Below are positions 6,146-54,740 of a DNA stretch of 64,000 bases, piece by piece (position 1 is the stretch's first letter; every line of letters starts with the position of its first letter). The notes beneath the pieces were generated by a model that saw only the letters and a program-made list of their open reading frames with translations, was not told where the DNA came from and did not search any database. Made by a program: the position numbers and the translations under genes. The stretch spans positions 104,286,001 through 104,350,000 of the forward strand of contig NC_086097.1 in NCBI RefSeq assembly GCF_963921235.1. Direction: 5' to 3'. The stretch is from Mobula hypostoma (lineage: Eukaryota).

Positions 6146-9115
6146 TAGAAACATAGAAAATAGGTGCAGGAGTAGGCCATTCGGCCCTTCGAGCCTGCAC
6201 CGCCATTTATTATGATCATGGCTGATCATCCAACTCAGAACCCCGCCCCAGCCTTCCCTCCATACCCCCTGACCCCCGTAGCCACAAGGGCCATATCTAA
6301 CTCCCTCTTAAATATAGCCAATGAACTGGCCTCAACAGTTTCCTGTGGCAGAGAATTCCACAGATTCACCACTCTCTGTGTGAAGAAGTTTTTCCTAATC
6401 TTGGTCCTAAAAGGCTTCCCCTCTATCCTCAAACTGTGACCCCTCGTTCTGGACTTCCCCAACATCGGGAACAATCTTCCTGCATCTAGCCTGTCCAATC
6501 CCTTTAGGATCTTATACGTTTCAATCAGATACCCCTCAGTCTTCTAAATTCCAACGAGTACAAGCTCAGTTCATCCAGTCTTTCTTCATATGAAAGTCCT
6601 GCCATCCCAGGAATCAATCTGGTGAACCTTCTTTGTACTCCCTCTATGGCAAAGATGTCTTTCCTCAGATTAGGGCACCAAAACTGCACACAATACTCCA
6701 GGTGTGGTCTCACCAAGGCCTTGTACAACTGCAGTAGTACCTCCCTGCTCCTGTACTCGAATCCTCTCGCTATAAATGCCAGCATACCATTTGCCTTTTT
6801 CACCGCCTGCTGTACCTGCATGCCCACTTTCAATGACTGGTGTATAATGACACCCAGGTCTCGTTGCACCTCCCCTTTTCCTAATCGGCCACCATTCAGA
6901 TAATAATCTGTTTTCCTATTTTTGCCACCAAAGTGGATAACTTCACATTTATCCACATTAAATTGCATCTGCCATGAATTTGCCCACTCACCCAACCTAT
7001 CCAAGTCACCCTGCATCCTCTTAGCATCCTCCTCACTGCTAACACTGCCACCCAGCTTCGTGTCATCTGCAAACTTGGAGATGCTGCATTTAATTCCCTC
7101 ATCCAAGTCATTAATATATATTGTAAACAACTGGGGTCCCAGCACTGAGCCTTGCGGTACCCCACTAGTCACTGCCTGCCATTCTGAAAAGGTCCCGTTT
7201 ATTCCCACTCTTTGCTTCCTGTCTGCTAACCAATTCTCCACCCACACCAATACCTTACCCCCAATACCGTGTGCTTTAAGTTTGCACACTAATCTCCTAT
7301 GTGGGACCTTGTCAAAAGCCTTTTGAAAATCCAAATATACCACATCCACTGGTTCTCCCCTATCCACTCTACCAGTTACATCCTCAAAAAATTCTTTGAG
7401 ATTCGTCAGACATGATTTTCCTTTCACAAATCCATGCTGACTTTGTCCGATCATTTCACTGCTTTCCAAATGTGCTGTTATCACATCCTTGATAACTGAC
7501 TCCAGCAGTTTCCCCACCACCGACGTTAGGCTAACCGGTCTATAATTCCCTGGTTTCTCTCTCCCTCCTTTTTTAAAAAGTGGGGTTACATTAGCCACCC
7601 TCCAATCCTCAGGAACTAGTCCAGAATCTAACGAGTTTTGAAAAATTATCACTAATGCATCCACTATTTTTTGGGCTACTTCCTTAAGCACTCTAGGATG
7701 CAGACCATCTGGCCCTGGGGATTTATCTGCCTTTAATCCCTTCAATTTACCTAACACCACTTCCCTACTAACATGTATTTCGCTCAGTTCCTCCATCTCA
7801 CTGGACCCTCTGTCCCTTACTATTTCTGGAAGATTATTTATGTCCTCCTTAGTGAAGACAGAACCAAAGTAATTATTCAATTGGTCTGCCATGTCCTTGC
7901 TCCCCATAATCAATTCACCTGTTTCTGTCTGCAGGGGACCTACATTTGTCTTTACCAGTCTTTTCTTTTTTACATATCTATAAAAGCTTTTACAGTCCGT
8001 TTTTATGTTCCCTGCCAGTTTTCTCTCATAATCTTTTTTCCCCTTCCTAATTAAGCCCTTTGTCCTCCTCTGCTGAACTCTGAATTTCTCCCAGTCCTCA
8101 GGTGAGCCACTTTCTCTGGCTAATTTGTATGCTTCTTCTTTGGAATTGATACTATCCCTAATTTCTCTTGTCAGCCACGGGTGCACTACCTTCCTTGATT
8201 TATTCTTTTGCCAAACTGGGATGAACAATTGTTGTAGTTCATCCATGCAACCTTTAAATGCTTGCCATTGCATATCCACCGTCACTCCTTTAAGTGTCAT
8301 TTGCCAGTCTATCTTAGCTAATTCACGTCTCATACCTTCAAAGTTACCCCTCTTTAAGTTCAGAATCTTTGTTTCTGAATTAACTATGTCACTCTCCATC
8401 TTAATGAAGAATTCCACCATATTATGGTCACTCTTACCCAAGGGGCCTCTCACGACAAGATTGCTAATTAACTCTTCCTCATTGCTCAAAACCCAGTCCA
8501 GAATAGCCTGCTCTCTAGTTGGTTCCTCGACATGTTGGTTCAAAAAACCATCCCGCATACATTCCAAGAAATCCTCTTCCTCAGCACCTTTACCAATTTG
8601 GTTCACCCAGTCTACATGTAGATTGAAGTCACCCATTATAACTGCTGTTCCTTTATTGCACACATTTCTAATTTCCTGTTTAATACCATCTCCGACCTCA
8701 CTACTACTGTTAGGTGGCCTGTACACAACTCCCACCAGCGTCTTCTGCCCCTTAGTGTTACGCAGCTCTACCCATATCGATTCCACATCTTCACGGCTTA
8801 TGTCTTTCCTTTCTATTGCGTTAATCTCTTCTTTAACCAGCAACGCCACCCCACCTCCCCTTCCTTCATGTCTATCCCTCCTGAATATTGAATATCCCTG
8901 AACGTTGAGCTCCCATCCCTGGTCACCCTGGAGCCATGTCTCTGTGATCCCAACTATATCATAATCATTAATAACAATCTGCACTTTCAATTCATCCACC
9001 TTATTACGAATGCTCCTTGCATTGACACATAAAGCCTTCAGGTGCTCTTTTACAACTCTCTTAGCCCTTATACAATTATGTTGAAAAGTGGCCCTTTTTA
9101 ATGCTTGCCCTGGAT
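6146..9115 (-). mobile_element. Young 5'-truncated CR1 LINE with nearly intact ORF2
   Basis: Continuous endonuclease-to-RT reading frame; 3' UTR and TTTCTATGTTTCTAT-type tail at the 6146 end; nested in the endonuclease region of the older CR1. Confidence 0.95.
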
Positions 9116-9218
9116 TTCCCACCACGACAGCCCTGTTATTATTACACCTTTCCAGAAACTGTCTCCCTATCTGCTCCTGGATGTTGTTGTTACTATTGGG
9201 TGGTCTATAAAAAAACAC
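6525..9218 (-). CDS. CR1 ORF2 (APE endonuclease plus reverse transcriptase), chimeric N-terminus, frameshifted near the C-terminus
   Basis: 897-aa ORF with NARSI, VYRPP, GDFN, SDHN, QHGF, LDFQKAFDKVPH, GVPQGSVLGP, FADD. The first ~35 aa come from the host CR1. An apparent 1-nt deletion at about 6531 (RLRG|I*) separates the C-terminal part (ORF 6235-6498). Confidence 0.9.
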   Translation of the reverse strand: MFFYRPPNSNNNIQEQIGRQFLERCNNNRAVVVGNPGQALKRATFQHNCIRAKRVVKEHLKALCVNARSIRNKVDELKVQIVINDYDIVGITETWLQGDQGWELNVQGYSIFRRDRHEGRGGGVALLVKEEINAIERKDISREDVESIWVELRNTKGQKTLVGVVYRPPNSSSEVGDGIKQEIRNVCNKGTAVIMGDFNLHVDWVNQIGKGAEEEDFLECMRDGFLNQHVEEPTREQAILDWVLSNEEELISNLVVRGPLGKSDHNMVEFFIKMESDIVNSETKILNLKRGNFEGMRRELAKIDWQMTLKGVTVDMQWQAFKGCMDELQQLFIPVWQKNKSRKVVHPWLTREIRDSINSKEEAYKLARESGSPEDWEKFRVQQRRTKGLIRKGKKDYERKLAGNIKTDCKSFYRYVKKKRLVKTNVGPLQTETGELIMGSKDMADQLNNYFGSVFTKEDINNLPEIVRDRGSSEMEELSEIHVSREVVLGKLKGLKADKSPGPDGLHPRVLKEVAQKIVDALVIIFQNSLDSGLVPEDWRVANVTPLFKKGGREKPGNYRPVSLTSVVGKLLESVIKDVITAHLESSEMIGQSQHGFVKGKSCLTNLKEFFEDVTGRVDRGEPVDVVYLDFQKAFDKVPHRRLVCKLKAHGIGGKVLVWVENWLADRKQRVGINGTFSEWQAVTSGVPQGSVLGPQLFTIYINDLDEGIKCSISKFADDTKLGGSVSSEEDAKRMQGDLDRLGEWANSWQMQFNVDKCEVIHFGGKNRKTDYYLNGGRLGKGEVQRDLGVIIHQSLKVGMQVQQAVKKANGMLAFIARGFEYRSREVLLQLYKALVRPHLEYCVQFWCPNLRKDIFAIEGVQRRFTRLIPGMAGLSYEERLDELSLYSLEFRRLRGI

Positions 9219-9556
9219 CCAGTAGAGTTACTGATCCCTTCCTGTTCCTAACTTCCCCCACAGAGACTCAGTAGACAATCCCTTCAAGACTTCCTCCTTT
9301 TCTGCAGCCGTGACACTCTCTCTGATCAACAGTGCCACGCCCCCACCTCTTTTTGCCTCCCTCCCTGTCCTTTCTGAAACATCTAAAGCCTGGCACTCTT
9401 AGGTAACCATTCCTGCCCCTGAGCAATCCAAGTCTCTGTAATGGCCACAACATCACAGCTCCAAGTGCTGATCCACGCTGTAATCTCATCCGCTTTGTTC
9501 ATAATACTCCTTACGTTAAAATAGACACACCTCAAGCCATCGGTCTGAGCGCATCT

Positions 9557-16520: not shown

Positions 16521-19500
16521 TAACATCTGGTTGGAGGCTTCCCAGAAAGAATATGAAGTATCACTCCTCCAGTATGAGGATGGCTTCATCGTGGCAGTAG
16601 ATGAAGCTATGGACCGGCATGTGAGAATGGGAAGTAGAGTTAAAATGAGTGGCCACCAGGAAACCCTGCCTATTATAGTGATGGTCATTGATGAAGGTAG
16701 TGCTGTGGATGTTGTCTATGTGGATTTTAGTAAGGTGTTTGACAAAGTTCCATGTGGTAGGTTCATCCAGAAGATTAAGATGCAGGGAATCCATGGTGAA
16801 TTGGCCTTTTGGATTCAGAATTAGAATTAGAGGGAAGAGGTAGATGGGTGAAAGTCTGTGACTGATGGTGTACTGCAAGGATCAAACATCAGAGGTGTAG
16901 AGGGACTTGGCAGTCCTTGTGCAAGACTCCTTGAAGGTTAATTTACAGGTTGAGTCTGTGGTGAGGCAATGTTGGCATTTATTTTAAGGGAATTAGAATA
17001 TGAAAGCAAGGAGATAATGCCAGGCCTTTATAAGACACTAGTCAGGCCGCACTTGGGGTATTGTCAACAGTTTTGGGCACCATGTCTCAGAAAGGATGTG
17101 TTGTCATTGGAGAGAGTCCAGAGGAGGTTCACGAGGCAATGAAAGGGTTAACATATGAGAAGCGTTTGGCAGCTTTGGGTCTATACTCACTGGAATTTAG
17201 AAGAATGTGTGGGGATCTCATTGAAACCTACTGAATATTGAAAGGACAAGATAAGGTGGATGTGGAGAGGATGTTTCCTATGGTGGGGGGTACCCAGAAC
17301 TAGAGGGCAACCTTTTAGTATAGAGGTAAGGAGAAATTTTTTTTAGTTTGAGTAGTGAATCTGTGGAATGCTTTGCCACAGACTGGATGAGGCAAGGTCC
17401 ATGGGTATATTTAAGGTGGAAGTTGATAGTTTTCTGAGTCATCACGACATCAAAGGATAAGGTAAGACTCAATTCCGGCAGCTGATTTGACTTCAGAGCA
17501 GTCAGGTTACAGTAAACTTGTGGAATGGCGCTATCAGAAGCTCCCAATTGATCTACCGCTCAATCCTGCCCTTGCCTTCCGTCTGTCTTCATCATTATGG
17601 CAAACTGGCACATGGCTTTCACCCCCCGAGACAGTAACACTCTCCCACTCTTCGTCTCTGTCCAGCCCTTCATGCGCTCATTGGGACAAAGCATCAGCAT
17701 CAATGTTCCTACTTCCTGGCTGGTACTTTAGGCTGAAATCATAGGCAGACAACGCCGCCAACCACAGATGGCCTGTGGCAATCATTTTCACCAAGGTCAG
17801 GTTATAAGTTAAGGGATTGTTGTCCGTCCTCACCGTAAACTTGGCACCATAGAGGTAGTCACTCAGCTTATCCACCACAGCCCATTTCAACGTCAAAAAT
17901 TCCAACTTGTGCGTGGGGTAGTTTTTCTCAGAGGGCAACAGACTCCGGCTGGCATCTGGTCTCAACCCGGTGCCCTAATCCTGATACAGGAAACCCCCTA
18001 AGCCCTCTCTGCTGGCATCCGTATGCAGTACATACGGCAGTCGAGGGTCTGCAAAAGTCAACACTGGTGCCTGGGTCAGCATATCCTCTCGCGACCGAAA
18101 GGCCTCTTCATATTTCACATCCCACAACAGAGCGTCCCTTGTAGGGCTAAGGTACTCTACCCTCCTCTCCTTTTGTCCTCCTCCCTTTCTTCCCCAAGGG
18201 AGGGTAACCACACAGAAGCTGATTCAACAGGTGACTCATTTTCGCATAGCCCTTCACGAACCTCCGATAGTAACCACAAAACCCAAGGAACAAGCCAAAA
18301 GCGCTCACAGTCTGGGGCCTTGGCCAGGTGGTCATCACTTCTATCTTAGACGGATCTGTAGTTACTCCATTCTGTGAAACTATGTGCCCAACATAGCTAA
18401 CAGACGTCTTGCAGGACTAGCAGTTGACCAGGGAAAGCCCTTCTTCATGTTCTTCCAAAGTGGACCGAAATCTGGATGAAGCCATCCAGATGCACCAATA
18501 CCTCAAGCAAGTTCATATCCCCCACCGTTTTCTCCATGACATGCTGGAAGGTCGCAGGGCCTATCAATATGCCCTGGGGCATCCTTTCGAACTGGAAGAA
18601 TCCAGTGGACATGTAAATGCTGTCTTCTCTTTGTCAGCCTCACTCATGGGGATCTGGTTATTTCCACTCCTCAAGTCCAGCACACTTGAAATGCTTCACA
18701 CCACTCAGACAGGCCAGCGCGTCTTCGATCCTTGGGACCATATATTGGTCGGGGTTGGGATACCTGTTCAAAGTCCTATAGTCCACACACATCCGTATCT
18801 TCCCATTTTTCTTCCTGGCCTACTGAGACGCATAGGGGCTTTGAGACTTGGTGATGATCCCAGCCTCCTTCAAATTACACAAATGCTGCCAAACGTCTTC
18901 CGCCTATGCAGCCTGGTGTCCTCAGTTACCTGGATAGTGTGATGAGCGCTCTTGGGACAACCCACTTCAAAATCATCAGTGGAAAAGACACCTTCCAGCT
19001 TCAACATCTTCTCTACCAGCTTCTTCCAACCTGCAGGTACTGGGGAGTTCCCGAAGTTGAATGACTCAGCGGTCAACTTTCCTCCCTTTTCCACTGGTTT
19101 CTCCCTGGCTTGTCTCACAGGGACACAAGATATTACTGTCACCAGAAAAAGGTGCGCCAGGGGCCATCCCCCGCTTGAAGGTGACCTCCTTCCTCGTAGT
19201 GATCCTGACAGTCACTGCCATCCTGTTCGTCTGTACAACCGAGGGTTTCTGCAGTTCGGACCTCACCAGTACCCCAGCAGGCATTTCCGACTCCTCTTCG
19301 TGGTGTTCTGGAGCATCCATCAAGAAGGCCTTGCCTTCGAGTATTCCAGAAAATTTGGGGTTTCCCATTATTTTCGTTAATTCCCTGGGCCGTAACACAA
19401 TTGGCTTGGAATGGGTGAACCACACGGTCCCTCGTCTAAACTCGTTGTCCGGCCCACTGCAGCCACGCATTTCCTCAAAAACAGCTCGAAACACCAGGTG

Positions 19501-19959
19501 AATGGACAATGTTCTTAGGAAGCTCTCTCCAGCTTTCTCCTTGCAGGCTCCCATGAGCCTCCTCGCAATAGGAGTGTTGGTCTCCACAAGAATTGGAACA
19601 CCGACTCTCTCAATGGGGTCCGGACAAACTAGAGCTAATGTATCAAGGACCTCAGCCACTCTCACATCATCCTCTGAAAACTCCAGCTTCACTGACAAAT
19701 AACCATCATACAGATTATCACCCACACTAAGACCCCAGATCTCTAGTGCACTGACTGGCATCAATGGTAAATGCGTCAAATACTGGTTGTAAAATGAATG
19801 GTACAGCAACATGACCTGCGACCCTGTGTCAAGTATGGCTCTAGCATAAATACCCTCTATCTGTAGCGATACACTGGAGCTTGGCCCCACTAAGCCTTCA
19901 GGAAAATCGTTTTTTGCGTTAGGGTGTTCCTTGATATATTGCTGGGAATGTATTCCCCT

Positions 19960-21389
19960 CGATATGCCAGGCCATCCCCTCACTGGGTCTCTTTTAAACT
20001 TTTCCAACAACTTTCTCTGCCTAGGTACTTGGGGGCTCACTCTCTGAAAGATTTCCTGTCCTTCACACTCCCACCTGAAGTGTCCCTCTTCACCAGAGTT
20101 ATAACAAATACTGGCTGCTCCCCTTCTTGTGTGACACCAGCTGCTAGCAGCCTTCCATATAATCAGTCCGCTTAGAGGATCCACCTCCCTATCAGCTCCA
20201 TCATATGGGGGGGGGGTTCACACCTGCTGATAACAACTGGGACATCTCAGTTCTCAACTCTACCACAGTCTCCTCTACTCCCCGGGGCAGGCTATCCGTG
20301 GTCACTTCATCGCAGGGGACCACCACCGAGGACTGTACCCTGCTGACGGAGGCCTCCTGTACCTCTGACACATTCTCCTCCTCTTGTACCTCTGATCAGC
20401 CCAACAAACAAGGGGGGTGCGCGTCTTACGAGATAGTTGGACATCCCAAGCGATCAGGTCCTGGGACTGGGTGCCCATTGCTATCTGGTCCATTCTTAAC
20501 TGATCCACCTCAGCTGTCTGAAGGCCCCACTACGCTGCAAGCAATGTAGCTGCCTCTCTAGCCGAAAAATGTAGGCAGAAAGCTTCTCCCCCTTCTCCTG
20601 ATGCATGTTCTGAAACCCTGCTTTTAGCTCCATTGGGTTTCCTGTCATGCCAAACACATTTTCCAATGCTCCCATGTAGTCGGACTTCAAGGCTCTCACC
20701 ACGTCAGCAGCCTGCCCCCTCAACCGCTCAACCAATCTCTGTCACTTTACGTCAACAGAGCACTGCCACTCATCTAACAAATGAGAGGTCTGCTCCACCC
20801 AAGTCTCATACTCCTCTTCCCTTTTTAGGGGTGGGCTTCGTTCCTGAGAATAGGCAGAGCCTGCCATAGCTGGGACTTTGGACCTGGGCATTTTTCCATT
20901 TATTTGCCAGAGAGATAAGGGCAGATACTAACTCAGAATTCTCACTCTTCCTTGGGGGGTGGGGACTAATTAGACATTCCAAATCTGACCACTCCTTCCC
21001 CTCACTCCTCAGAAACGATAGAACCCCGTCTTTCAAGTCTCCACCCCCAGCTAGGGAAACTCGACTTGTGATTCGGCCCGCTCCACTACACACTCTTCCT
21101 CCCTGACAGTATGGACAGTCCATGGCCCCACCTCATCTGGGGCACCGATATTACTGGGCAGCTCCACTGCTGTTACGTCAGCGCTAGTCTGCAGTAAAAT
21201 GAGGTTGGTGCCCGCCATTTGATCAAACCTCCGCCCAGCAATCGTAATTTTGCCGACAGCTGTAACAGTACTTAACAGGCGAATTAACAATTCATCCAGA
21301 GTACGAACACCTACTCCATTCAACACATACACATTAGTTACCGGTAACCCCGTGGATGAACACCACTGCTCCACCCCAGCTGCATCCAT
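19960..21389 (-). pseudogene. PNMA/Ma-like Gag (N-terminal domain, capsid, zinc knuckle), frameshifted
   Basis: YGRLCLFSGTKPTP, VERLRGQAADVV, ALENVFG, HQEKGEKLSAYIFRLE resemble the recalled PNMA capsid motifs (YRKLRVFSG, ESLRGPA, QEEGEKVSAYVLRLE); split over at least four ORFs. Confidence 0.8.
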
Positions 21390-28019: not shown

Positions 28020-31000
28020 GTAATTAAACTCTTTTCTCTTCTTTTATAACAAGGCGGCATCTATTGTTATGGTGGGAGTAAGGTGGGAAGTGCTCTGAGA
28101 TTGTTAGAGGAAGCATAAAGTTCTTTAGATTAGATTAGATTCAACTTTATTGTCATTGTGCCAAGTACAGATAAAAAGCCAATGAAATGCAGTTAGCATC
28201 TGACCAGAAGTGCAAAGAATAGTGAGAGTTTGAAAGTAAGATTTAGCTGTATTTCAGATTCTATTGTTATTGCAGGGGATATAAGCAAGGGTGGGGGCAC
28301 TTCACTTGAGGTAATGAAGGAAGATTAGGATTGCAGTTGATTTTTCTTGAATTATATTTGTGGTAGAATACTGATTTGCCTTGCTCCATGTAAGTTATCT
28401 GTTCTCCACCAACATCGTGGAAGTTGAATGGTTCTGTTGAACTTGTGTCTTTTTGAATTGAAAAATCATCCCATTCCATTTACATTTAAGTAATTGTTAT
28501 TTCTCTTGGTCTTTTCCTCATCAAGCTTCTGACTCATTCCACAGTACAAGGTCATTTGATCACAGGTTTTATTCCTAGTCTGTGCTGGGTCACAGCAACA
28601 ATGACAATTAGCCAAATCTCTCAGCCCTGCTTAGAGTAGAAAGTGTGCCTGTGTAACAGGACTGCCATCCTAACAAAATGGAAAAACTTTCAAACACTTG
28701 CAGCTACTCATTTGCTGTGTCCATTTGCAGTCGCCCGACCTTGTGCAGTGTTGTGTCGCATTTAACTCCAAAACAATGTGTTACTTGGAAAAGCAGATTC
28801 TTGGTATTGACCTGTAGCTGTGTAGTTTTTTTAATTTAAAAAACCAAATTTCAGAAATTAACTATTAAAATACGAAGTGAAATGCTTTGTATTTGTTCAA
28901 GACCTCTGGTTGTTTCCCTTGAACAACAATGTATCGATCTGAGCTGCAATCTTCAATTAAGAAACAATAAACTGTGCGGTCCAGGAGACCTTAGTTTGAA
29001 AAATGATGCATCATTTTTTTTTGTTACTCTGATGCAATTTTGCAATATTTGCTACCTCACACCACCTATATTCTCATTCGTTATATATAAACAGTACCGG
29101 TACCAATTCCTACAATACCATAAGGCCAAGAAGAGTTAGGATATTCACCCCATCAAATTTGCTATGCCATTTAATCATGGCTGATTTATTATCTCTCTCA
29201 ATGCTACCTCCATCCTACTCCCTATAACTTTTGACACTCTTACTAATCAGAACCTATCAACCTCCATTTTAAGTATACTCAATGACTTGCTCTCCACAGC
29301 CGTCTGTGGTAATGAATTCCACAGATTCACGACCCTCTGGTTAAAGAAATTCCTCCTCATGTCTGATCTAAAACGACATCCTTCTATTCTGAATCTGTGC
29401 CCTGTGGTCCTTGACTCTCCCACATCCTCACCATGTCTATTCTGTTTTGGCCTTCAAAATTTAATAGATTGCAATGAGATTTCACTCCCCCACCCCACCC
29501 CGATTCTTCTAAACTCCAGCAAGTGCAGGCCCAGAGCCGTCAAACTCCATGCAATACCTGCCTCTCCACCTATCTTTGTATGGTCTGAAAACTTGGCCAC
29601 AAAGCTTTCAATTTTGTCATCCAAATCATTAACATATAATGTGAAAAGGAGCAATCCCAACATTGACCCCTGCAGAACACCACTAGTCACCGTTAGCCAA
29701 CCAGAAAGAGTGGGTCTCCTTTATACCCACTCTTTTCCTCCTGTCAGTCAACCACTCTTCTATCCTTGCTGTTACCTTTCTTGTAGTACCATGGGCTCTT
29801 ATCTTAGCAGACTCATGTGCGGCATCTTGTCAAAAGGCTTCTGAAAATCCAAGCAAACAAAATCCACTGACTCTCCTTTGTCTATCCTGCCTGTTATTTC
29901 CTCAAAAAGTTCCATCAGGTTTGTCAGGCAAGATTTCTACTAAAGGAAACCATGCTGACTTTGGCCTATTTTATCATGTACCCTGAAGGATCATCCTTAA
30001 TAATGGACACCAAAATCTTCCCAGCCACTGAAGCAAGGCTAATTAGCCTGCAATTTCCTGTCTTTTGCCATTCTCCCTTCATAAAGAGTGGGCATTTGCA
30101 ATTTTTCAGTCCTCAAGAACCATTCCAGAATATCTAGTGATTCTTGAAAGATCACTACTAATGCTGCCTCCACGATCTCTTCAGTCACCTCCTTCAGAAC
30201 GCTGGCCAAGGGTGGGGTGGGGTGGGGAGGGTTGTGTAGTCCATTTGGTGCAGGTGACTTACCTCCCTTCGACCTTTCAGCTTCCTAAGCACCTTCTCCT
30301 TAGTGATAGCAACTGTATTCACACCTGCCCCCTGATGTTCTCAAATTTCTGGCATTCTGCTAGTGTCTTCCTCAGTAAAGACTGACGCAAAATAATTATT
30401 GAGCTCATCTGCCATTTCTTTGACCCCCATTACAACCTCTCCAGCATCAGTTTCCCACAATCCGAAATCCACTATTGCTTCTTTTACTCTTCATATATCT
30501 GAAAAACCTTCCGGTATCCTTTATATATGATTGGTTAGCTCATCTTCATATTTCATCCTTATCCTAATGCTTTTTTAGTTGCCTCCTTTTGGTTTTTAAA
30601 TACCTCCTAATCCCTAGCTTCCCACTAATTTTGGCAATATTGTATGCTCTCTATTTTGCTTTTATGCTGCACTTGACTTCCCTTGTCATCCATGGGTGTT
30701 TCATCCTCCAGTTAGTATACTTCTTCTTTCGGATATGTCTACCCTGCACCTTCCGAACTGCTCCCTGAAACTCCAGCCATTGCTGTTCTGTCATCTCTGC
30801 CAATGTCTCCTTTCAGTCAACTTTGGCCAGTTCCTTTCCCATGCCTCTGTAATTCCCTTTATTTCACTGTAATACGGATACATCCAGTATTAACTTTACT
30901 TCCGCAAACTGCAGGGTGAATTGTATCATATTATGATCACTGGTTCTCAACAATTCCTTTACCTTAAGCTCTGTAATCAAATATGGTTCATTATAAAATA

Positions 31001-31241
31001 CTCAATTCAGAATTGTCTTTTCCCTAGTGGGCTCAAGAACAAGCTACTTGAAAAACCACTTTGTAGCAATCTACAAATTCCTCCTCTTGCAATCCAGCAT
31101 CAACATAATTTTTCCAATCTAGCTGCATATTGAAATCCTCCACGACCATCATAACATTGCTGTGTTTGTGTACTTTTTCTACCTCGCACTGTAATTTGTT
31201 GCCCACATCCTGGCTGTATTTGGAAGCCTATATATAACTCC

Positions 31242-31722
31242 GTGGTCGAGTGGTCGGCGACTCGGGCCGGCTCCCCCACAGGACTTAGTCTGGTGAGGAG
31301 GGTGTGAGGACACCCAGCAGGACTAAAAAAAAAACAAGACCTGACAAAGGGCGGATGAGTTCCTTGTGAGCCAATGGCCATCTTTCGTGGAAGAGATTAA
31401 AGCCTCACCACGTATCTACGAATTGTATGCTATGCACCTAGTTAGAAGAGACATGATGAACTTGGGCGCTGCACCGTGTGCCTGGACCTGCCCGAGGCCT
31501 CCGCCTAAAGAAGGGCCGAGCTCGAAGAAGCGGCCGTGGCTGGAGGCTGACACAGTCTGGGACTCGAGTTCAAGTTCGTCGGGGGCAGCAGCGGGCGGTG
31601 CCAAGGCGGCCAGCGAGAACAAACTGGAGGAGAGGCTGTACTTGGTGCAGTCGCAAGATCGAAGAAGATGGAGGTGCATAGCTGCCAACCCCAGATTCGG
31701 GAGGGCACCCACTGACTGACTG
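31242..31722 (+). mobile_element. Non-autonomous RTE-derived retroelement carrying a captured gene fragment
   Basis: 10-bp TSD ATATAACTCC (31232-31241 and 31723-31732); (ACTG)3 tail; RTE-like C-terminus QDRRRWRCIAANPRFGRAP; GC-rich head; internal CYHR1-like segment. Confidence 0.85.
31468..31651 (+). pseudogene. ZFTRAF1: Circularly permuted fragment of CYHR1/ZFTRAF1 coding sequence
   Basis: 31470-31502 encodes [11 protein letters not shown]; 31504-31650 encodes [25 protein letters not shown]. Joining 31651 to 31468 gives [22 protein letters not shown], against recalled CYHR1 [22 protein letters not shown]. Confidence 0.8.
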
Positions 31723-31919
31723 ATATAACTCCCATCAGGGTCTTTTCACCCTTGCAGTTTCTTAACATACCATTGACTCTGGATTCATTCTCACTGCAGT
31801 AGCTGTATACTAATAGACAAAAAAAGATAAAATCGTACCAGAAACTTACCTAGAGCCTTTGCCTCTTCTCACCTGAGCTTCTTGGGTCGAAATCTCCAAC
31901 ACTGCCCACTCCATTTACA

Positions 31920-34900
31920 TGCAAACATGAGTAAATCTGCAGATGCTGGAATTTAAAGCAACACACATAAAAAATGCTGATGAACGCAGCAGGCCAGGCA
32001 GCATCTATAGGAAGAGGTACAGTCGACGTTTTGGGCCGAGACCTCTCGTCAGGACTAACTGAAAGAAGAGATAGTAAGAGATTTGAGAGGGGGAGGGGAG
32101 ATCTGAAATGATAGGAGAAGACAGGAGGGGGAGGGATGGAGCCAAGAGCTGGAAAGTTGATGGGCAAAAGGGATACGAGGCTGGAGAAGGGAGAGGATCA
32201 TGGGACAGGAGGCCTAGGGAGAAAGAAAGGGGGAGGGGGGAAGCCCAGAGGATGGGCAAGGGGTATAGTGAGAGGGACAGAGGGAGAAAAAGGAGAGAGA
32301 GAGAGGGAGGGAGAGGGAGAGGGATATATATATATAAAAATAAATAACGGTTGGGGTACGAAGGGGAGGTGGTGCATTAACAGAAGTTAGAGAAGTCAGT
32401 GTTCATGCCATCAGGTTGGAGGCTACCCAGACAGAATATAAAGTGGTGTTCCTCCAACCTGAGTGTGACTTCATCTTGAGAGTAGAGGAGGCCGTGGATA
32501 GACATATCGGAATGGGAATGGGACATGGAATTAAAATGTGTGGCCACTGGGAGATCCTGCTTATTCTGGCGGACAGAGCGTAGGGGTTCAGCGAAATGGT
32601 CTCCCAGCCTGCATCAGGTCTCACCAATATATAGAAGGCCACATCGGGAGCACCGGACGCAGTATATCACCCCAGCTGACTCACAGGTGAAGTGTCGGCT
32701 CAACTGGAAGGACTGTCTGGGGCCCTGAATGGTGGTGAGGGAGGAAGTGTAAGGGCTTGTGTAGCACTTGTTCTGCTTACAAGGATAAGTGCTGGGACGG
32801 AGATCGGTAGGAAGGTATGGGGAGGACGAACGGACAAGGGAGTCACATAGGGAGCAATCTCTGCAAAAAGCAGAAGGGGGGAGGGAAAGATGTGCTTAGT
32901 GGTGGGATCCTGTTGGAGGTGGCAGAGGTTACGGAGAATTATATGTTGGACCCAGAGGCTGGTGGGGTGGTAGGTGAGGACATGGGGAACCCTATTCCTA
33001 ATGGGGTGGCGGGAGTATAGGGTGAGAACAGATGTGCGTGAAAAGGGAGAAATGTATTTGAGAGCAGAGTTGATGGTGGAGGAAGGGAAGCCCCTTTCTT
33101 TAAAAAAAAAGGGGGACATCTCCTTCGTCCTGGAATGAAAAGCCTCATCCTGAGAGCAGATGCGGCAGAGACAGAGGAATTGCGAGAAGGGGATGGCATT
33201 TTTGCAAGTGACGGGGTGGGAAGAGGAATAGTCCAGGTAGCTGTGAGAGTCCGTAGTCTTATAGTAGACATCAGTTGATAAGCTGTCTCCAGAGATAGAG
33301 ACAGAAAGATCTAGAAAGGGGAGGGAGGTGTTGGAAATGGACCAGATAAACTTGAGGGCAGGGTGAAAGTTGGAGACAAAGTTAATGAAGTCAACGAGCT
33401 CAGCGTGCGTGCAGGAAGCAGCACCAATGCAGTCGTTGATGTAGCGAAGGAGAACTGGGGGGACAGATGTCGATATAGGCTTGGAACATGGATTGTTCCA
33501 CAAAGCCAACAAAAAGGCAGGCATAGCTGGGACCCATACGGGTGCCCATGGCTACACCTTTAGTTTGGAGGAAGTGGGAGGAGCCAAAGGAGAAATTATT
33601 AAGAGTAAGGACTAATTCCGCTAGATAGAGGAGAGCGGTGGTAGAGGGGAACTGATTAGGTCTGGAATCCAAAAAGAAGCGGAGAGCTTTGAAACCTTCC
33701 TGATGGGGGGGCGGGGGGGGGTGGAAGTATATAGGGACTGGACATCCATGGTGAAAATAAAGCGGTGGGGGCCAGGGAACATAAAATCATGGAAAAAATT
33801 TAGAGCATGAGAAGTGTCACGATCGTAGTTAGCAAGGGATTGAACAAGGGGGGGATAAAACAGTGTCGAGGTATGCAGAAATGAGTTCGGTGGGGCAGAA
33901 GCAAGCTGAGACAATGGGTCTACCTGGACAGGCAGTTTTGTGGATCTTGGGTAGGAGGTAGAAATGTGAAGTGTGGGGTGTGGGAACTGTAAGGCTGGTA
34001 GCAGTGGATGGGAGATCCCCTGAGCTGATAAAGTTAGTGATGGTGTGGGAGACAATGGCCTGGTGCTCCTTAGTGGGGTCATGATCAAGGGGTAAATAAG
34101 AGGAGGTATCCGCGAGTTGTCGCTGTGGTTTGGCAAGGTAGAGGCCAGTACGCCAGACTACAACAGCACCTCCCGCCCCCCCCGCCCTTAACGGCGGGTT
34201 TTATAGTAAAGTCAGGATTAGTGCAGAGGGAGTGGAGAGCAGAGCGTTCGGAAGGAGTGAGGTTGGAATGGGAAAAAAGGGTGCGGTGAAGTTGAGATGG
34301 TTGATGTCCCATCGGCAGTTAGCAATAAAGAGATCCAGAGCAGGCAGAAGACCAGAACAGGGTGTCCATGAAGAGGAGGAGGGTAGAAGAGAGGAGAAGG
34401 GGTCACTGGTGGGGGTGAGAGAGTCCTTGCTGAAGAAGTAGGCTCGAAGACGGAGCCGGCGGAAGAACATAGAATAGTACAGCACAGTACAGGCCCTTCG
34501 GCCCACAATGATGTGCTGACCCTCAAACCCTGCCTCCCATATAACCCCCCACCTTAAATTCCTCCATAATATACCTGTCTAGTAGTCTCTTAAACTCCAC
34601 TTTCTGCCTCCACCACTGACTCAGGCAGTGCATTCCATGCACCAACCACTCTCTGAGTAAAAATCTTCCTCTAATATCCCCCTTGAACTTCCCACCCCTT
34701 ACCTTAAAGCCATGTCCTCTTGTATTGAGCAGTGGTGCCCTGGGGAAGAGGCGCTGGCTATCCACTCTATCTATTCCTCTTATTATCTTGTACACCTCTA
34801 TCATGTCTCCTCTCATCCTGCTCCTCTCCAAAGAGTAAAGCCCTAGCTCCCTTAATCTCTGATCATAGAGTTCAGCATCATGGCGAATGTGGAACTCGCT

Positions 34901-42567: not shown

Positions 42568-44585
42568 TAAGAACATAAGAAATAGGAGCAGGAGTAGGCC
42601 ATCCAGCCCACCGAGCCTGCCCTGCCATTCAATAAGATCATGGCTGGTCTGTCCATAAACTCAGCATCATCTATCTGCCTTTTCCCCATAACCCTTAATG
42701 AAAGCCAACATTCCATTTGCCTTCTTAATAACCTGTTGTACCTGCAAGCCAACTTTTCGTGATTCATGAACAAGTACTCCTGAGTCCCTCTGCACAACAG
42801 CATGCTGCAATCTTTTACCATTTAAATAATAATCTGCTCTTCTATTATTCCTTCCAAAGTGGATGATCTCGCATTTACCAGCGTTGTATTCCATCTGCCA
42901 GACCTTGGCCCACTCACTTAACCTATCTATATCCCTCTGCAGACTCTCCACATCCTCTGTACAATTTGCTTTTCCACTCAGTTTAATGTCATCAAATTTT
43001 GCTACACTACACTCAGTCCCCTCTTCCAAATAATCAATGTAAATGATAAACAGCTGCGGGCCCGGTACTGACCCCTGTGGCACCCCACTCACCACCGACT
43101 GTCAACCGGAGAAACACCATTATACCAACTCTCTGCCTTCTATTGGTTAACCAATCCATTATCCATGCCAATACACTTCCTCCGACTCCATGCATCTGTA
43201 TCTTATTTATAAGTCTCTTGTGTGGCACCTTATCGAATTCTTTCTGGAAATCCAAGTATACAACATCCACCTGTTCCCCTCTATCCACTGCACTCATTAT
43301 GTCCTCAAAGAACTCCAGTAAGTTTGTCAAACAGGACCTGCCCTTTCTGAATCCATGCTGCGTCTGTCTAATGGAACCACTCCTTTCTAAATGTTTTGCT
43401 ATTTCTTCCTTAATGACAGCTTCAAGCATTTTCCTGACTACAGATGTTAAGCTAACTGGCCAATAGTTGCTTGTCTTTTGCCTACTTCCTTCCTCCGCCA
43501 ATTCCCTCAGCACCCTGGGATGCATCCCATCAGGACCAGGGGACCTGGACATTCAGGCCCTCTAGTTTGCTCATCACTATCTCTTTAGTGACAGTGATTT
43601 TTATCTAGGTCCTCACCTCCCATTTCATCCATAACATCCTTCTTTGGCATATTAGACGTGTCTTCCACCATAAAGACTGACACAATGCCTCAGCCATTTC
43701 CTTCTCACCCAATATCAATTTCCCCTTCTCGTCTTCTAGGGGACCTACGTTGACTTCAGCCACCCTCTTCCGCTTTATATAATTATAAAAGCTTTTGCTG
43801 TCTGTTTTTATATTTTGTGCTAATTTACTTTCATACTCTATCTTCCCTTTCCTTATTTCTTGTTTAGTTGTTCTCTGTTGCTTTTTAAAGTTTGTCCAGT
43901 CCTCCAGTCTCTCACTACTCTTTGCAACTTTGTACACATGGTCTTTTATTTTGATGCTTCTTTTATTTCCTTAGTTTTCCAAGGCTGGCTCTCCCCATAC
44001 TTACTCTCCTTACTTTTGATTGGAATATACTTTTGTTGAGCATTGTGAAAAATCTCTTTGAAAGTGTTCCATTGTTCCTCAGCTGTCCTTCCAAATAGCC
44101 TGTGCTCCCAATCCAAATTAGCCAACTCCTCTCTCATCCTGTTGTAGTCTCCCTTGTTCAAGCATAATACACTAGTTTTAGATCTATTTCATCCTCAATC
44201 TGTATGCGAAATTCAATCATACTATGATCACTCTTTCCAAGAGAATCCCTGACTACAAAATCGTTAATCTTACCTGTCTCATTACACAGGACTAGATCTA
44301 AGATAGCATTTTAACTTGTAGGTTCAGTAACATGCTGCTCAAGAAACCTATCACGGATGCATTCCTCAAGACTTCCTTGACCAACCTGATTCACCCAATC
44401 TATGTGGAAGTTAAAATCCCCCATAACAACTGCCGTTCCATTCTTACAAGCCTCTGCCACTGCAATATATTTATTAGGTGGCCTACAGACAACTCCACCA
44501 GCGATTTTTTTTTCCCCCTTTACTATTCTTAATCTCTATCCAGATGGACTCAACATTCTGTTCTGGAGATCTTATATTGTTTCTC
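42568..44585 (-). mobile_element. Internally deleted CR1 copy
   Basis: Tail ATAAGAACATAAGAA at 42567; RT motifs QHGFRKGRSCLTNL and GVPQGSV; same subfamily as 62065-64000. Confidence 0.9.
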
Positions 44586-45897
44586 ACAGATGTACTTAAT
44601 GAATACTTTGCTTCAGTATTCACTATGGAAAAGGATCTTGGAGATTGTAGGGATGACTTACAGTGGACTGAAAAGCTTGAGCATGTAGATATTAAGAAAG
44701 AGGATGTGCTGGAGCTTTTGGAAAGCATCAAGTTGGATAAGCCACTGGGACCAGACGAGATGTACCCCAGGCTACTGTGGGAGGCGAGAGAGGAGATTGC
44801 TGAGCCTCTGGTGATGATCTTTGCATCATCAATGGGGATGGGCGAGGTTCCGGAGGATTGGAAGGTTGCAGATGTTCCCTTATTCAAGAAAGGGAGTAGA
44901 GATAGCCGAGGAAATTATAGACCAGTGAGTCTTACTTCAGTGGTTGGTAAGTTGATGGAGAAGATCCTGAGAGGCAGGATTTATGAGCATTTGGAGAGGC
45001 ATAATGTGATTAGGAATAGTCAGCATGGCTTTGTCAAAGGCAGGTCATGCCTTACGAGCCTGTTTGAATTTTTTGAGGATGTGACTAAACACATTGATGA
45101 AGATAGAGCTGTAGATGTATGGATTTCAGGAAGGCATTAGACAAGGTACTTGATGCAAGGCTTATTGAGAAAGTAAGGAGGCATGGGATCCAAGGGGACA
45201 TTGCTTTGTGGATCCAGAATTGGCTTGCTCACGAAAGGCAAAGAGTGGTTGTAGATGGGTCATATTCTGCATGGAGGTCGGTGACCAGTGGTGTGATTTT
45301 TATAAATGACCTGGATGAGGAAGTGGGGGGATGGGTTAGTAAATTTGCTGATGACACAAAGGTTGGGGGTGTTGTGGATAGTGTGGAGGGCTGTCAGAGG
45401 TTACAGCGGGACATTGATGGGATGCAAAACTGGACTGAGAAGTGGCAGATGGAGTTCAACCCAGATAAGTGTGAGGTGGTTCATTTTGGTAGGTCAAATA
45501 TGATGGCAGGATATAGTGCTAATAGTAAGACTCTTGGCAGCGTGGAGGATCAGAGGGATCTTGGGGTCCAAATCCATAGGACACGCAAAGCTGCTGCGCA
45601 GGTTGACTCTGAGGTTAAGAAAGCATATGGTGCATTGGGCCTTCATCAGTCGTGGGATTGAGTTTAGGAGCCGAGAGGTAGTGTTGCAGCTATATAATAC
45701 CCTGGTCAGACCCCACTTGGAGTACTGTGTTCATTTCTGGTCACCTCACTACAGGAAGTTGTAACCCATATGTAAGGGGTTTCTTCTTTTATGTTACTGC
45801 GTATGTTAATCAAAATAGCTTCTTTGTTATGTTAATCTTTTATGTTACTGCATATGTTAATTAAAATGGCCTCTTTGTTATGTTAAATGCTGATTGA

Positions 45898-46881: not shown

Positions 46882-47013
46882 AAAGTCTCTAGCTTGCACT
46901 TTGCTCGAGTTATAATACAGATAGCAGATGTACTATGAGCCAATGGGTGTCCATGTTATTCTTTCTTGGGGTGATATGCTGTCACATATGGCTGGGAACC
47001 GGGGGTTTTGGCG

Positions 47014-47281
47014 GGGAGTCGGAGGGGAGACCGTGAGGACGATGGACTTGCGGGAAAGCTCAGGTTGATCGCTCCGGGCGGGGAGTCGGAGGGGAGACCG
47101 TGAGGACGACGGACCTGCGGGAAAGCTCAGGTTGATCACTCCGGGTGGAGAGTCGGAGGAGAGACCGTGAGGGCGACGGATGTACGGGAAAGCTCAGGTT
47201 GATCACTCCGGGCAGGGAATCGGAGGAGAGACCGTGAGGGCGACGGACTTGCAGGAAAGCTCAGGTTGATCACTTTGGGTG
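47014..47281. repeat. Tandem array, 4 x 67 bp
   Basis: Units start at 47014, 47081, 47148 and 47215: GGGAGTCGGAGGGGAGACCGTGAGGACGACGGACTTGCGGGAAAGCTCAGGTTGATCACTCCGGG.. Confidence 0.95.
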
Positions 47282-50180: not shown

Positions 50181-52866
50181 ATCAGCTGTTTGGTTTTGCT
50201 TTTGGATTTAGAGGTTGATGTGTTTATTACGCTTTTGGGGTTTTTTTGTACAGGGGGGAGGAATGCGGGGGTTGATGATGTGCCATGATCCCAGTGCAGG
50301 TTGATAGGAGTAGGCAGTTTAGATGGTTTGGTATGGGCCAAGTTGCCTGTTACTGTGCTGTACTTTTCTGTGTCGTGTATCACCAAGGCTCCCAACATAT
50401 TTGACTGCTGGTAAGCTACTATCAGAAATACCTGCAAAGACCCATAGTAAGGCAATTGTTTGGTAAAGTTGCTGTTAGTGGGATGGATTGAAGTTTGTCT
50501 TTAGATTCTCGGGGTGTTGGTTTAACAGTATGGAAAAATGAGGATAGAGTAAAAGTAAAAAAGAGTGCAGGCGAGATTGCAAAAGTTTCCAGAATAAATG
50601 AAAAAAACAAAGCTTATAAAGGAATAAGAATGTAACTTCCAGGATCATGGAGTCAAAAATGAAATGGGTGATGAATACACGAGTGAAGGTGTTATATTTG
50701 AATCCACATATTGTACAGAATAAGTAGATGATCTTGTTGCACAGTTAGAATTTGGCAGGTATGATGCTGTGGCTGAAAGAAGATTACAGTCAGGTAGGAA
50801 GAAGGGGTGGGTGGCTCTGTTGGTTTAAAACAAATCAAATGCTTACACAGAAGTGACAGAGGATCAGAATATGTAGAATCCTTGTGAGTAGAGTTAAGAC
50901 ACTTCAAAGGTAAAATGATTCTGATAAGAGTTACACAGTAGCCAGGATGTGGGGTAGGATGCGAGATAGAAAAGACCTGTAAAAAAGGCAATGTTGCATT
51001 AGTCTTGAGGGATTTAAATTTGCCGTTTGATTGGGGAAAATCAGGTTGGTGCTTAATCACGAAAGAAAGAATTTGTCAAATACCTACAAGATGGGTTTTT
51101 AAAGCAGCTTATGGTTGGGCCCACCAAGGAAGAGGCAATTCTGGATTGGGTGCTGTGTAATGAACCAGATTTGATTGGGGACCTTAAGGTAACAAAACCC
51201 ATAGTAAGGCAGTGTTCATAATTTGCTAGAAGGAGAAGAAAATTCAGATGTACGGTACTGTAGTAATTTTATGTATTGCACTGTACTGCCTCAAAAAAAT
51301 GTTCTTCATGTGGGTGATGATAAACCTGATTCTGATATGGGCCTCAGCTGAGAGTGGGAAGAAGGCAGGGAGAAAGGATGGTTGGGTGAAGGGCATGGAG
51401 TGGGAATCACCAGAGAGACATTCTGTAATTATCAATAAAGCAATTGTTTGAATCAGTTACCTTGCCTGGTGTCTCAGTGCTGGGTGTATCTGCACATGGC
51501 ACCCCACACCTCCCTGCCCCGGCACTCCTTCTCTACCACTTGTCCCACACTCCTCCTGCAGCACTACAACCTTGCCAGTACCAATATCCTTTGCTCTACT
51601 AGATTTACAGACTCACTCTCCGCTCCATGTTGACAAATACAGTTCTGTGCAAAAGTCCCAGGCACACTTACAGTATATGGTTAGGATGCCTTTTGCACAG
51701 CACTGTATCAGTACAGTAGAATAAAGGGAATGACAGAGGCATGAGAGAAGAGCTGACCAAAGTTAGTTGCAAGGGGATACTAGGGATGATGTCAAGGGAA
51801 GTCACAGATGGAATAAAAGCAAAATAAAGGGATATAATATAGCAAAAATTAGTGGGAAGCTAGAGGATTCAAATTCAAGTTGAACGGTCATTCAAATATA
51901 CATGAACACCCATGAATATAGCTTAACGAAACGGTGTTACTCCTGGGCCAAGGTACTAAGCACTTTATCAACAGCGTAAGGCATCTAGTGCTCATATAAG
52001 ATAGCAAACACATGCAATCACACAAAAAAATATAGTCCATGATCCTGAGTCCATGAATGTTACAGTAGTTTGCAGTTCCCATTCCAACCTCACTCCTTCC
52101 GAACGCTCTGCTGTCCACTCCCTTCGCACTAATCTTAACCTTACTATAAAACCAATCAATAAGGGGGGCGCTGTTGTACTCTGGCATACTGACCTCTACC
52201 TTGCTGAGGCACAGCGACAACTCGCGGATACCTCTTCTTATTTACCCCTCGATCTTGACCCCACTAAGGAGCACCAGGCCATTGTCTCCCACACCATCAC
52301 CAACTTTATCCGCTCGGGGATCTCCCATCCACTGCTACCAACCTTATAGTTCCCACATCCCGCACTTCCCGTTTCTACCTCCTACCAAGATCCACAAACC
52401 TGCCTGTCCGGGTAGACCCATTGTCTCAGCTTGCTCCTGCCCCACCAAACTCATTTCTGCATACCTCGACACTGTTTTATCCCCCCATGTTCAATCCCTT
52501 CCCACCTATGTTCATGACACTTCTCACGCTCTGGATTTTTTCAATGATTTTAAGTTCCCTGGCCCCCACCGCTTTATTGGATGTCCAGTCCCCACCAGGA
52601 AGGTCTCAAAGCTCTCCGCTTCATTTTGGATTCCAGACCTAACCAGTTTCCCTCTACCACCACTCTCCTCCGTCTAGCAGAATTAGTCCTTACTCTTAAT
52701 AATTTCTCCTTTGGCTCCTCCCACTTCCTCCAAACTGAAGGTGTAGCCATGGGCACCCATATGGGTCCCAGCTATGTCTGCCTTTATATTGGCTTTGTGG
52801 AACAATCCATGTTCCAAGGCGATACTGGTATCTGTCCCCCCCCCCCCACTTCTCCTTCGCTACATC

Positions 52867-53524
52867 AGTTCAGTTCAGTTTTCGTTTATTGTCATTTAGA
52901 AATGCATGCATTAAAAAATGATACAACGTTCCTCCAGAATGATATCACAAGAAAACACAGGACAAACCAAAACTAAAACTGACAAAACCACATAATTATA
53001 ACATATAGTTACAACAGTGCAAAGCAATACCATACTTTGATAAAGAGCAGACCATGGGCACAGTAAAAAAAAAGTCTCAAAGTCCCGATAGACTCATCAT
53101 CCCATGCAGGCGGCAGAAGGGAGGAACTCTCCCTGCCATGAACCTCCAAGTGCCGCCAACTGGCTGATGCAGCACCATTAGAAGCACCTGACCACAGCGG
53201 ACTCTGAGTCCGTCCGAAAACTTTGAGCCTCCAACCAGCCCCTCCGACACAGCCTCTCTGAGCACCATCCTCTGCCGAGCGCTTCGACTCCGTCCGGGCC
53301 GCCGAGCAACAAGCAAAACCGAGGACTCGGGGCCTTCCCCTCCGGAGATTCTGGACCACACAGTAGCAGCAGCAGCGAAGCAGGCATTTCAGAAGTTTCA
53401 CCAGATGTTCCTCTGTGCTATCACGTCCGTCTCCATCAAATCAGGATTGTGTACAGCATCCTACTTGACAAATAACAGACATCACCACTGGAGTGGCCAC
53501 TGCGAGCTGCGTCGCGCCGCCATC
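52867..53524 (-). mobile_element. Non-autonomous ~660-bp retroelement inserted in the Penelope RT active-site codons
   Basis: Minus-strand head GATGGCGGCGCGACGCAGC; tail AATGACAATAAACGAAAACTGAACTGAACT; CATC at both junctions. Confidence 0.85.
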
Positions 53525-54617
53525 GATGACTGTATTGACGCTGCTTCCTGCACGCATGCTGAGCTCGTTGACTTCATTAACTTTGCCTCCAACTTTCACC
53601 CTGCTCTCAAGTTTACCTGGTCCATTTCTGACACCTCCCTCCCCTTTCTTGATCTTTCTGTCTCTATCTCTGGAGACAGCTTATCTACTGATGTCTACTA
53701 TAAGCCTACGGACTCTCACAGCTACCTGGACTATTCTTCTTCCCACCCTGCCTCTTGCAAAAATGCCATCCCCTTCCTGCAATTCCTCCGTCTCTGCCGC
53801 ATCTGTTCTAGGACAAAGGAGATGTCCTCCTTTTTTAAAGAAAGGGGCTTCCCTTCCTCCACCATCAACTCTGCTCTCAAACGCATCTCTCCCATTTCAC
53901 GCACATCTGCTCTCACCCCATCCTCCCGCCACCCCACTAGGAATAGGGTTCCCCTTGTCCTCATCTACCACCCCACCAGCCTCCAGGTCCAACATATAAT
54001 TCTCCGTAACTTCCGCCACCTCCAACAGGATCCCACCACTAAGCACATCTTTCCCTCCTCCCCACTTTCTGCTTTCCGCAGTGATCGCTCTCTATGTGAC
54101 TCCCTTGTCCATTTGTCCCCTTGATCCCTTCCCACTGATCTCCCTCCTGGCACTTATCCTTGCAAGCAGAACAAGTGCCACACATGCCCTTACACTTCCT
54201 CCCTCACCACCATTCAGGGCCCCAGACAGTTCTCCCAGGTGAGGCGACACTTCACCTGTGAGTCGGCTGGGGTGATATACTGCGTCCGGTGCTCTCGATG
54301 TGGCCTTCTATATATTGGCGGGACCCAACGCAGTCTGGGAGACCGTTTTGCTGAACACCTACAGTCTGTTCGCCAGAATAAGCAGGATCTTCCAGTGGCC
54401 ACACATTTTAATTCCACGTTCCATTTCCATTCTGATATGTCTATCCACAGCCTCCTCTACTGTCGAGATGAAGCCACACTCAGGTTGGAGGAACAACACC
54501 TTATATTCCATCTGGGTAGCCTCCAACCTTATGGCATGAACATTGACTTCTCTAACTTCCTTTAATGCCCCACCTCCCCTTTGTACCCCATCCCTTATTT
54601 ATTTATTTATTATTATT

Positions 54618-54622
<5 letters not shown>

Positions 54623-54670
<48 letters not shown>

Positions 54671-54740
54671 TCTCACTCTCTCTCACTCTCTCTCACTCTC
54701 TCTCACTCTCTCTCACTCTCTCTCTCTCTCTCACTCTCAC
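54623..54740. repeat. (CT)n grading into a (CTCTCTCTCA)n-type microsatellite
   Basis: Seen directly inside the Penelope 3' UTR. Confidence 0.95.

What the first reader, a model, noticed from the sequence alone, without database searches (positions are those of the whole stretch)
31468..31651. The captured CYHR1 segment is circularly permuted
Seen: the downstream peptide ([11 protein letters not shown], 31470-31502) comes before the upstream peptide (PKEGP..[9 protein letters not shown], 31504-31650). The last base of the segment (T31651) joined to its first bases (GC, 31468-31469) restores the TGC codon and gives ..[11 protein letters not shown] with no gap or overlap. Inference: the template was a circular RNA or DNA copied once around, or a tandem duplication trimmed to exactly one unit.
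Basis: partly seen in the sequence, partly recalled or inferred. Interest (0 to 1): 0.75.

Follow-up and report, generated by a model that had tools for sequence, protein, structure and literature searches.

The report
Swapped gene piece inside jumping repeat
A short piece of the host gene ZFTRAF1 (CYHR1), with its two parts in swapped order, forms the middle of a small jumping-gene copy that inserted here, so the swap most likely happened once in the repeat's founder and not at this spot.

Summary
The swap is real. Ray ZFTRAF1/CYHR1 residues 114-124 map to 31470-31502 and residues 60-109 to 31495-31641, the reverse of the native order. That is likely but unproven, because no native DNA, genome or reads were available. 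The inner junction is an overlap zone (31495-31503), not a splice junction: GT-AG fits 0 of 16 crossover points. The piece lies inside a 481-bp insertion (31242-31722) with a 10-bp target-site duplication and a tetramer tail, in an older LINE; its ends look RTE-like, untested. Best mechanism (0.45): microhomology-guided template switching by reverse transcriptase, once round a loop. A DNA microcircle is close behind (0.33); back-spliced circRNA is unlikely. The scan already noted this on other DNA of this genome (10 notes, 176-178 bp, about 700 to thousands of copies; unchecked here). New variant of a known kind; interest 0.4.

The parts
31232..31241 (+). left copy of the 10-bp target-site duplication
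   Evidence: exact match to 31723-31732; this 10-mer occurs only twice in the window, both on +
31242..31467 (+). 5' part of the retroposon (226 bp, GC 52%). It begins with an A-box-like motif (31243-31253) and ends in a peptide resembling the start of a LINE endonuclease domain
   Evidence: The RTE likeness and the box consensus are recalled. No database match
31468..31503 (+). block A: downstream part of the ZFTRAF1 piece (native residues 113/114-124, start of the RING finger), placed first
   Evidence: tblastn; codon walk; Sina_RING starts at P0001 residue 114
31495..31503 (+). inner junction: overlap (microhomology) zone readable as the end of block A and as native R60-P61-(Q/E62) of block B
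   Evidence: chance 0.4-0.8%; inferred from relatives' proteins, not from native DNA
31504..31651 (+). block B: upstream part of the ZFTRAF1 piece (native residues about 63-112 plus one base of C113), placed second; near-tandem hexamers at 31564-31578
   Evidence: homologue search, tblastn, codon walk, alignment
31652..31722 (+). 3' part of the retroposon (71 bp): end of a LINE-like reading frame (stop at 31717-31719) and a short tetramer-repeat tail (ACTG x3)
   Evidence: The RTE C-terminus likeness is recalled; searches found no parent
31723..31732 (+). right copy of the target-site duplication
30234..31755 (-). older LINE fragment interrupted by the insertion
   Evidence: aligns with the paralogous LINE at 2693-3739, whose frame at 2368-3198 has an Exo_endo_phos domain. 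With the element removed, one 55-nt gapless block spans the site against 2738-2684

Best explanation
Shown: a 481-bp insertion with a target-site duplication and a repeat tail, whose middle is about 184 bp of ZFTRAF1 coding sequence in rotated order, in sense with the element's tail. Inferred: it is one copy of a non-autonomous retroposon built from the two ends of an RTE-type LINE, and the rotation arose once in its founder during a single reverse-transcription event. The enzyme copied about 70 nt of the LINE tail and switched onto ZFTRAF1 mRNA inside codon C113. It copied block B toward the 5' end. At the R60-P61 microhomology it hopped forward to the look-alike stretch at K122-S124, which was still single-stranded, and copied block A. 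It then ran into its own entry point, already covered by cDNA, and switched to the LINE's 5' end. This gives exactly one unit, an overlap at the inner junction and loss of the LINE's interior, with no need for a covalent circle. Later copies, this one included, moved by ordinary target-primed retrotransposition using an intact LINE's proteins.
For: Order swap. Best gap-free join at the named point. Overlap at the inner junction, with no GT-AG fit at 0 of 16 points. The piece is all coding and in sense with the tail. 184 mod 3 = 1, as the register between R60 and K122 demands (187 nt in Pristis, 199 in skate; arithmetic). 10-bp TSD starting with A, tetramer tail and an empty-site equivalent. 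RTE elements have TSDs mostly of 10-12 bp and short repeat tails (PMC6007223 section 15; PMC1291365 passages). RTE is one of four clades known to give two-ended non-autonomous derivatives (PMC5786205). Dong et al. allow that non-colinear junctions can come from reverse transcription across linear RNA (PMC4897178).
Against: No parent LINE was found, so RTE identity and the outer breakpoints are untested (three 8-base motifs absent from the Kojima supplement). The model needs three template switches. Non-LTR reverse transcriptases can displace strands (recalled), so stopping at the entry point is not assured. GC 65%, CpG o/e 0.74 and a near-nucleosomal size suit a DNA microcircle as well. Sense orientation is only a 2:1 argument. 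Only one copy lies in this window, and the copy number comes from unchecked notes. Those notes give 176-178 bp, not 184.
Confidence: 0.45

Rival explanations
1. A small DNA circle (microDNA) was excised from the GC-rich first coding exon by microhomology, opened once, and patched into a broken or already internally deleted LINE copy, which then spread.
For: The overlap at the inner junction fits. Small eccDNAs are enriched in exons, 5' UTRs and CpG islands, carry end repeats and have nucleosome-related sizes (PMC9578701 passages). The piece has GC 65% and CpG o/e 0.74 against 38-42% and 0.27-0.39 in the flanks. AB->BA germline insertions are described in humans: 82 cases (bioRxiv 10.64898/2026.09.03.749254 passages).
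Against: It needs circle formation, a clean opening and a LINE deletion as separate steps. It does not predict sense orientation. 80 of those 82 human cases are intra-chromosomal plain insertions. The review gives microDNA as 200-3000 bp, with placental peaks at 146 and 340 bp, so 184 is not a specific match.
Confidence: 0.33
2. DNA-level template switching during repair (fork stalling, synthesis-dependent patching), or a tandem duplication of the exon trimmed to one unit.
For: Microhomology at the inner junction is what such switching uses (PMC9578701 passage).
Against: Nothing in this model stops copying at exactly one unit, yet the best split is gap-free. No second unit lies in this copy.
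Confidence: 0.12
3. Retrocopy of a back-spliced circular RNA.
For: Non-colinear order is the mark of circRNA pseudogenes (PMC4897178). A minor GC-AG pair is formally possible at 1 of 16 points, 31496.
Against: GT-AG fits 0 of 16 points. Both junction ends lie inside contiguous coding sequence. The published cases join annotated exon ends.
Confidence: 0.05
4. On the join only, compatible with any mechanism above: the rotation is near-exact, not exact. The 4-bp direct repeat at 31470-31473 and 31646-31649 is a site duplication or an integration microhomology, the outer bases come from the LINE, and about 5-6 native bases (codons L112-C113) are missing.
For: The repeat is visible in the sequence. 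It would explain the L112 mismatch without a mutation. 31470-31647 spans 178 bp, the length most earlier notes give.
Against: The outer 6 nt fit the native codons with one mismatch at one split only (chance 7.9%). About 7 other non-synonymous changes in the well-aligned codons make one more mismatch ordinary. The 178/184 gap could instead be a 6-nt local duplication at 31564-31578.
Confidence: 0.25

Closest known systems
Bipartite, ORF-absent non-autonomous RTE LINEs such as Bov-A, RTESINE1/2 and RTE-N2_Lch (PMC5786205; parts 1-3 of 5 read, supplement searched for 3 motifs)
   Same: Short element with about 200 bp of 5' end and about 70 bp of 3' end (RTE-N2_Lch keeps 214 and 70 bp; here 226 and 71), a repeat tail and a TSD near 10 bp.
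   Different: Here a host coding fragment in rotated order sits between the two ends. The parts read describe no such body. The LINE parent is not identified here.
eccDNA-mediated AB->BA germline insertions (bioRxiv 10.64898/2026.09.03.749254; part 1 of 8 and 4 passages read, supplements closed)
   Same: Cyclic shift of block order with near-complete coverage of the source and little overlap.
   Different: Those are single insertions, nearly all on the source chromosome. Here the piece is the body of a retroposon with its own TSD.
circRNA-derived pseudogenes (PMC4897178; whole main text read, supplements not seen)
   Same: Non-colinear exon sequence copied into the genome, sometimes in many copies (33 for circRFWD2).
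   Different: They carry back-splice junctions between annotated exon ends. Here the junction is inside coding sequence, on an overlap, with no GT-AG fit.
SVA_F1 (MAST2) and the chimpanzee STK40-exon SVA subfamily (PMC6139936; abstract only)
   Same: A host first exon becomes a fixed module of a non-autonomous retrotransposon subfamily.
   Different: Those exons were gained by splicing at the 5' side of the element; the abstract mentions no rotation. Here the piece is internal and rotated.

Membership tests
non-LTR retroposon insertion | target-site duplication, 3' simple-repeat tail, intact empty site | tested here: met
   10-bp TSD, ACTG x3 tail, gapless alignment across the site to a paralogous LINE
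bipartite non-autonomous RTE LINE | 5' and 3' parts homologous to the ends of an autonomous RTE | tested here: inconclusive
   no parent found; likeness rests on recalled peptide motifs; no repeat library or genome was available
bipartite non-autonomous RTE LINE | TSD of 7-15 bp and short tandem-repeat tail | tested here: met
   against PMC6007223 section 15; not exclusive to RTE
bipartite non-autonomous RTE LINE | many interspersed copies with the same ends | not testable with these tools
   one copy in the window; earlier notes claim about 700 to thousands, unchecked
tRNA-headed SINE (SINE2) | tRNA-like head with A and B boxes | tested here: inconclusive
   A-box consensus (recalled) exact at 31243-31253; no B box with fewer than 2 mismatches; no tRNA by ARAGORN or Rfam
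circRNA-derived pseudogene | non-colinear junction at back-splice sites | tested here: not met
   GT-AG 0 of 16, GC-AG 1 of 16 crossover points, deduced from relatives' proteins assuming no indel at the junction
circRNA-derived pseudogene | matching circular RNA expressed from the source gene | not testable with these tools
   no reads laid
AB->BA eccDNA-type insertion | cyclic shift of source blocks, at least 95% coverage, at most 5% overlap | tested here: met
   at protein level only: order swapped; a gap of 0-6 nt and an overlap of up to 9 nt in 184 both fall within the limits quoted
AB->BA eccDNA-type insertion | source molecule was a DNA circle | not testable with these tools
   block order alone does not separate a DNA circle from a loop-back copy

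The most novel reading that the evidence does not exclude
A LINE reverse transcriptase made an exact circular permutation of a linear host mRNA segment, by looping back at a microhomology and colliding with its own entry point. The same event deleted the LINE's interior and founded a SINE-like family of hundreds to thousands of copies whose body is a rotated host exon. If so, an exact AB->BA order is not proof of a circular DNA or RNA template, and this is a SINE body whose birth can be traced to the base.
Probability: 0.3. Interest if true: 0.65.

Novelty: new variant of a known kind. Interest (0 to 1): 0.4.

Why it matters
The origin of SINE middle bodies is called enigmatic (PMC5786205), and rotated block order is used as the mark of circular templates. 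A family with a rotated host exon between two LINE ends, with many copies and a known source gene, allows every junction to be rebuilt to the base, so circle and loop-back models can be told apart. Transcribed copies would also carry about 180 nt matching ZFTRAF1 mRNA, which could confuse read mapping or act on the gene (speculation). This particular site is probably just one copy of the family.

Tried and rejected
No genome is held for this window and no reads or contigs were laid, so the native DNA, the family consensus, the copy number and expression stay open. Sequencing-run search: 20 of 24 listed runs hold part of the stretch, in 9 studies. Shares of 0.21-0.50 come from 5 coded organisms. 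None was laid, so which part they hold is unknown. No RNA holder was listed, and small shares are not used as evidence. Parent LINE searches found nothing: 5' frame (0 of 2 candidates), 3' frame (0 of 6), block B plus tail against 1.84 billion representatives (0 at E 0.001; this also missed ZFTRAF1 itself, so it is weak), PDB, Pfam. Metagenome and viral contigs gave 0 of 597 pattern matches confirmed in each. Look-ups of earlier findings by a long word list, by sequence and by relatives were blank. Rfam gave only 2 sub-threshold hits. The 5' part does not fold better than shuffles (z -0.43), so there is no support for a 5' ribozyme, though pseudoknots are not modelled. Rejected: chance similarity; this order being native (7 of 7 informative proteins have the opposite order, from related species only); insertion of the piece at this site (the TSD lies outside it); canonical back-splicing. 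Literature: no paper on this element among the listings (20 of 3184 shown; 15 of 25; 20 of 133; 15 of 17; 2 of 2; 25 of 123; 11 of 11). I saw titles and abstract starts only; Repbase and subscription journals were not searched.

Full report
Setting. The window is repeat-rich animal DNA with many LINE fragments. The only protein matches to the captured piece were ZFTRAF1/CYHR1 of three rays and skates (3 of 143 candidates), so the source is probably a ray or relative (inference). No genome is held and no reads were laid. The native gene is therefore known here only through relatives' proteins.

Order of the blocks. tblastn of P0001 places residues 114-124 at 31470-31502 (frame 3, 10 of 11 identical) and residues 60-109 at 31495-31641 (frame 1, E 1e-19). 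Four of 7 queries gave both hits; the other three lack this region. All 7 of the 11 held proteins that contain the region have the opposite order. The piece has GC 65% and CpG o/e 0.74, against 38-42% and 0.27-0.39 in the flanks, as expected for a CpG-island exon. That it is the first coding exon, ending a few codons after block A, is recalled and stated in earlier notes; I did not test it. The Narcine isoforms start at residue 134, which is compatible.

Outer join. Between Y109 and C114 the native protein has four residues, or 12 nt. Random flanks reach this in 1.4% of trials; for the last 6 nt alone the figure is 7.9%. The two mismatches are in S110 and L112. About 7 further non-synonymous changes in the well-aligned codons make such mismatches ordinary. 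Against exactness: a 4-bp direct repeat bounds the piece (31470-31473, 31646-31649) and would explain the L112 mismatch, leaving a 5-6 nt gap. Earlier notes give 176-178 bp. The 6-nt difference could be this gap, or a local duplication at 31564-31578. I put the exact join at about 75%.

Inner junction. Read in block B's frame, 31495-31500 encodes native R60-P61 unchanged, and the next three codons are each one change from Q62, L63 and E64. Random GC-rich sequence does this 0.4-0.8% of the time. So the blocks overlap by several bases, the mark of microhomology; its true length needs native DNA. The register requires a unit length of 1 mod 3, which 184 (and 178) satisfy; the same distance is 187 nt in Pristis and 199 in skate (arithmetic). 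A back-splice would need a donor after block A's end and an acceptor before block B's start. GT-AG is possible at 0 of 16 crossover points and GC-AG at 1 of 16.

The carrier. The piece lies in a 481-bp insertion, 31242-31722, with a perfect 10-bp target-site duplication and an ACTG x3 tail. With the insertion removed, the flanks align across the site in one gapless block to a paralogous LINE at 2738-2684. This copy is thus an ordinary retroposon insertion, and the capture is older than it. The 226-bp 5' part ends in a peptide like the start of a LINE endonuclease, and the 71-bp 3' part reads like the end of an RTE protein; both likenesses are recalled, and no search found the parent. The sizes resemble RTE-N2_Lch, which keeps 214 and 70 bp of its parent (PMC5786205). 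TSD length and tail type fit RTE but not only RTE. An exact A-box-like motif at the start, without a good B box, leaves a clipped tRNA-type head possible. One copy lies in the window. Ten earlier scan notes on this genome, of which I saw nine, describe the same module in a family of about 700 to thousands of copies. I could not check them, and they are not independent support.

Mechanism. My first reading favoured a DNA microcircle. Two earlier notes pointing to template switching (e1-7813272, e1-7813714), and the overlap found, moved me. If reverse transcriptase enters the mRNA in codon C113, copies block B, hops at the microhomology to the still-free stretch downstream and copies block A, it meets its own cDNA exactly at the entry point. 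One event then explains the single unit, the overlap, the sense orientation and the loss of the LINE interior (inference; 0.45). The DNA circle explains the overlap and composition equally well but needs more separate steps (0.33). Repair switching or a trimmed duplication gives no reason for exactly one unit (0.12). Back-splicing fails its defining test (0.05).

Comparison. It works like a two-ended non-autonomous LINE derivative; membership of the RTE clade is inconclusive. It meets the block-order test for AB->BA insertions at protein level, but that test does not prove a circle. It is not a circRNA pseudogene by the splice test. Host exons as fixed retroposon modules are known from SVA subfamilies (PMC6139936 abstract), gained by splicing. 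I found no paper on this element in the listings; repeat databases were not searchable. The closed supplements of the bioRxiv preprint and the unseen supplements of Dong et al. may hold small cases closer to this one.

Verdict. The rotation is real and the exact join is probable. It is one copy of a retroposon whose founder captured the piece. New variant of a known kind; interest 0.4.

Noticed in passing
window 31345-31719 +: One reading frame stays open for 124 codons through the element (in-frame ATGs at 31432, 31453, 31456). Block B is in its native frame and in frame with both LINE-like ends. It may be chance (about 1 in 9) or may have helped the RNA survive.
   Followed up: partly
window 31243-31253 +: Exact match to a recalled Pol III A-box consensus at the very start of the element (14 such matches on the + strand of the window); no good B box.
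   Followed up: partly
window 31564-31578: Near-tandem hexamers inside block B; a candidate 6-nt duplication that could explain 184 against the 178 bp of earlier notes.
   Followed up: partly
window 6525-9227 -: 900-codon open LINE frame with endonuclease and RVT_1 domains, apparently a young, little-decayed copy.
   Followed up: partly
window 47010-47274: Four tandem copies of a 67-bp GC-rich unit, 90% matched.
   Followed up: no
window 32267-34274 and 52076-54677: Two inverted, 85-88% identical copies of a repeat with RT-like frames; no Pfam hit at E 0.001. Penelope-like by recalled motifs only.
   Followed up: partly
window 19066-20217 -: 383-codon frame that looks like LTR-retrotransposon gag-protease by eye; no Pfam hit.
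   Followed up: partly
window 42901-44588 and 62187-64000: Inverted pair of LINE fragments, 84-95% identical.
   Followed up: no
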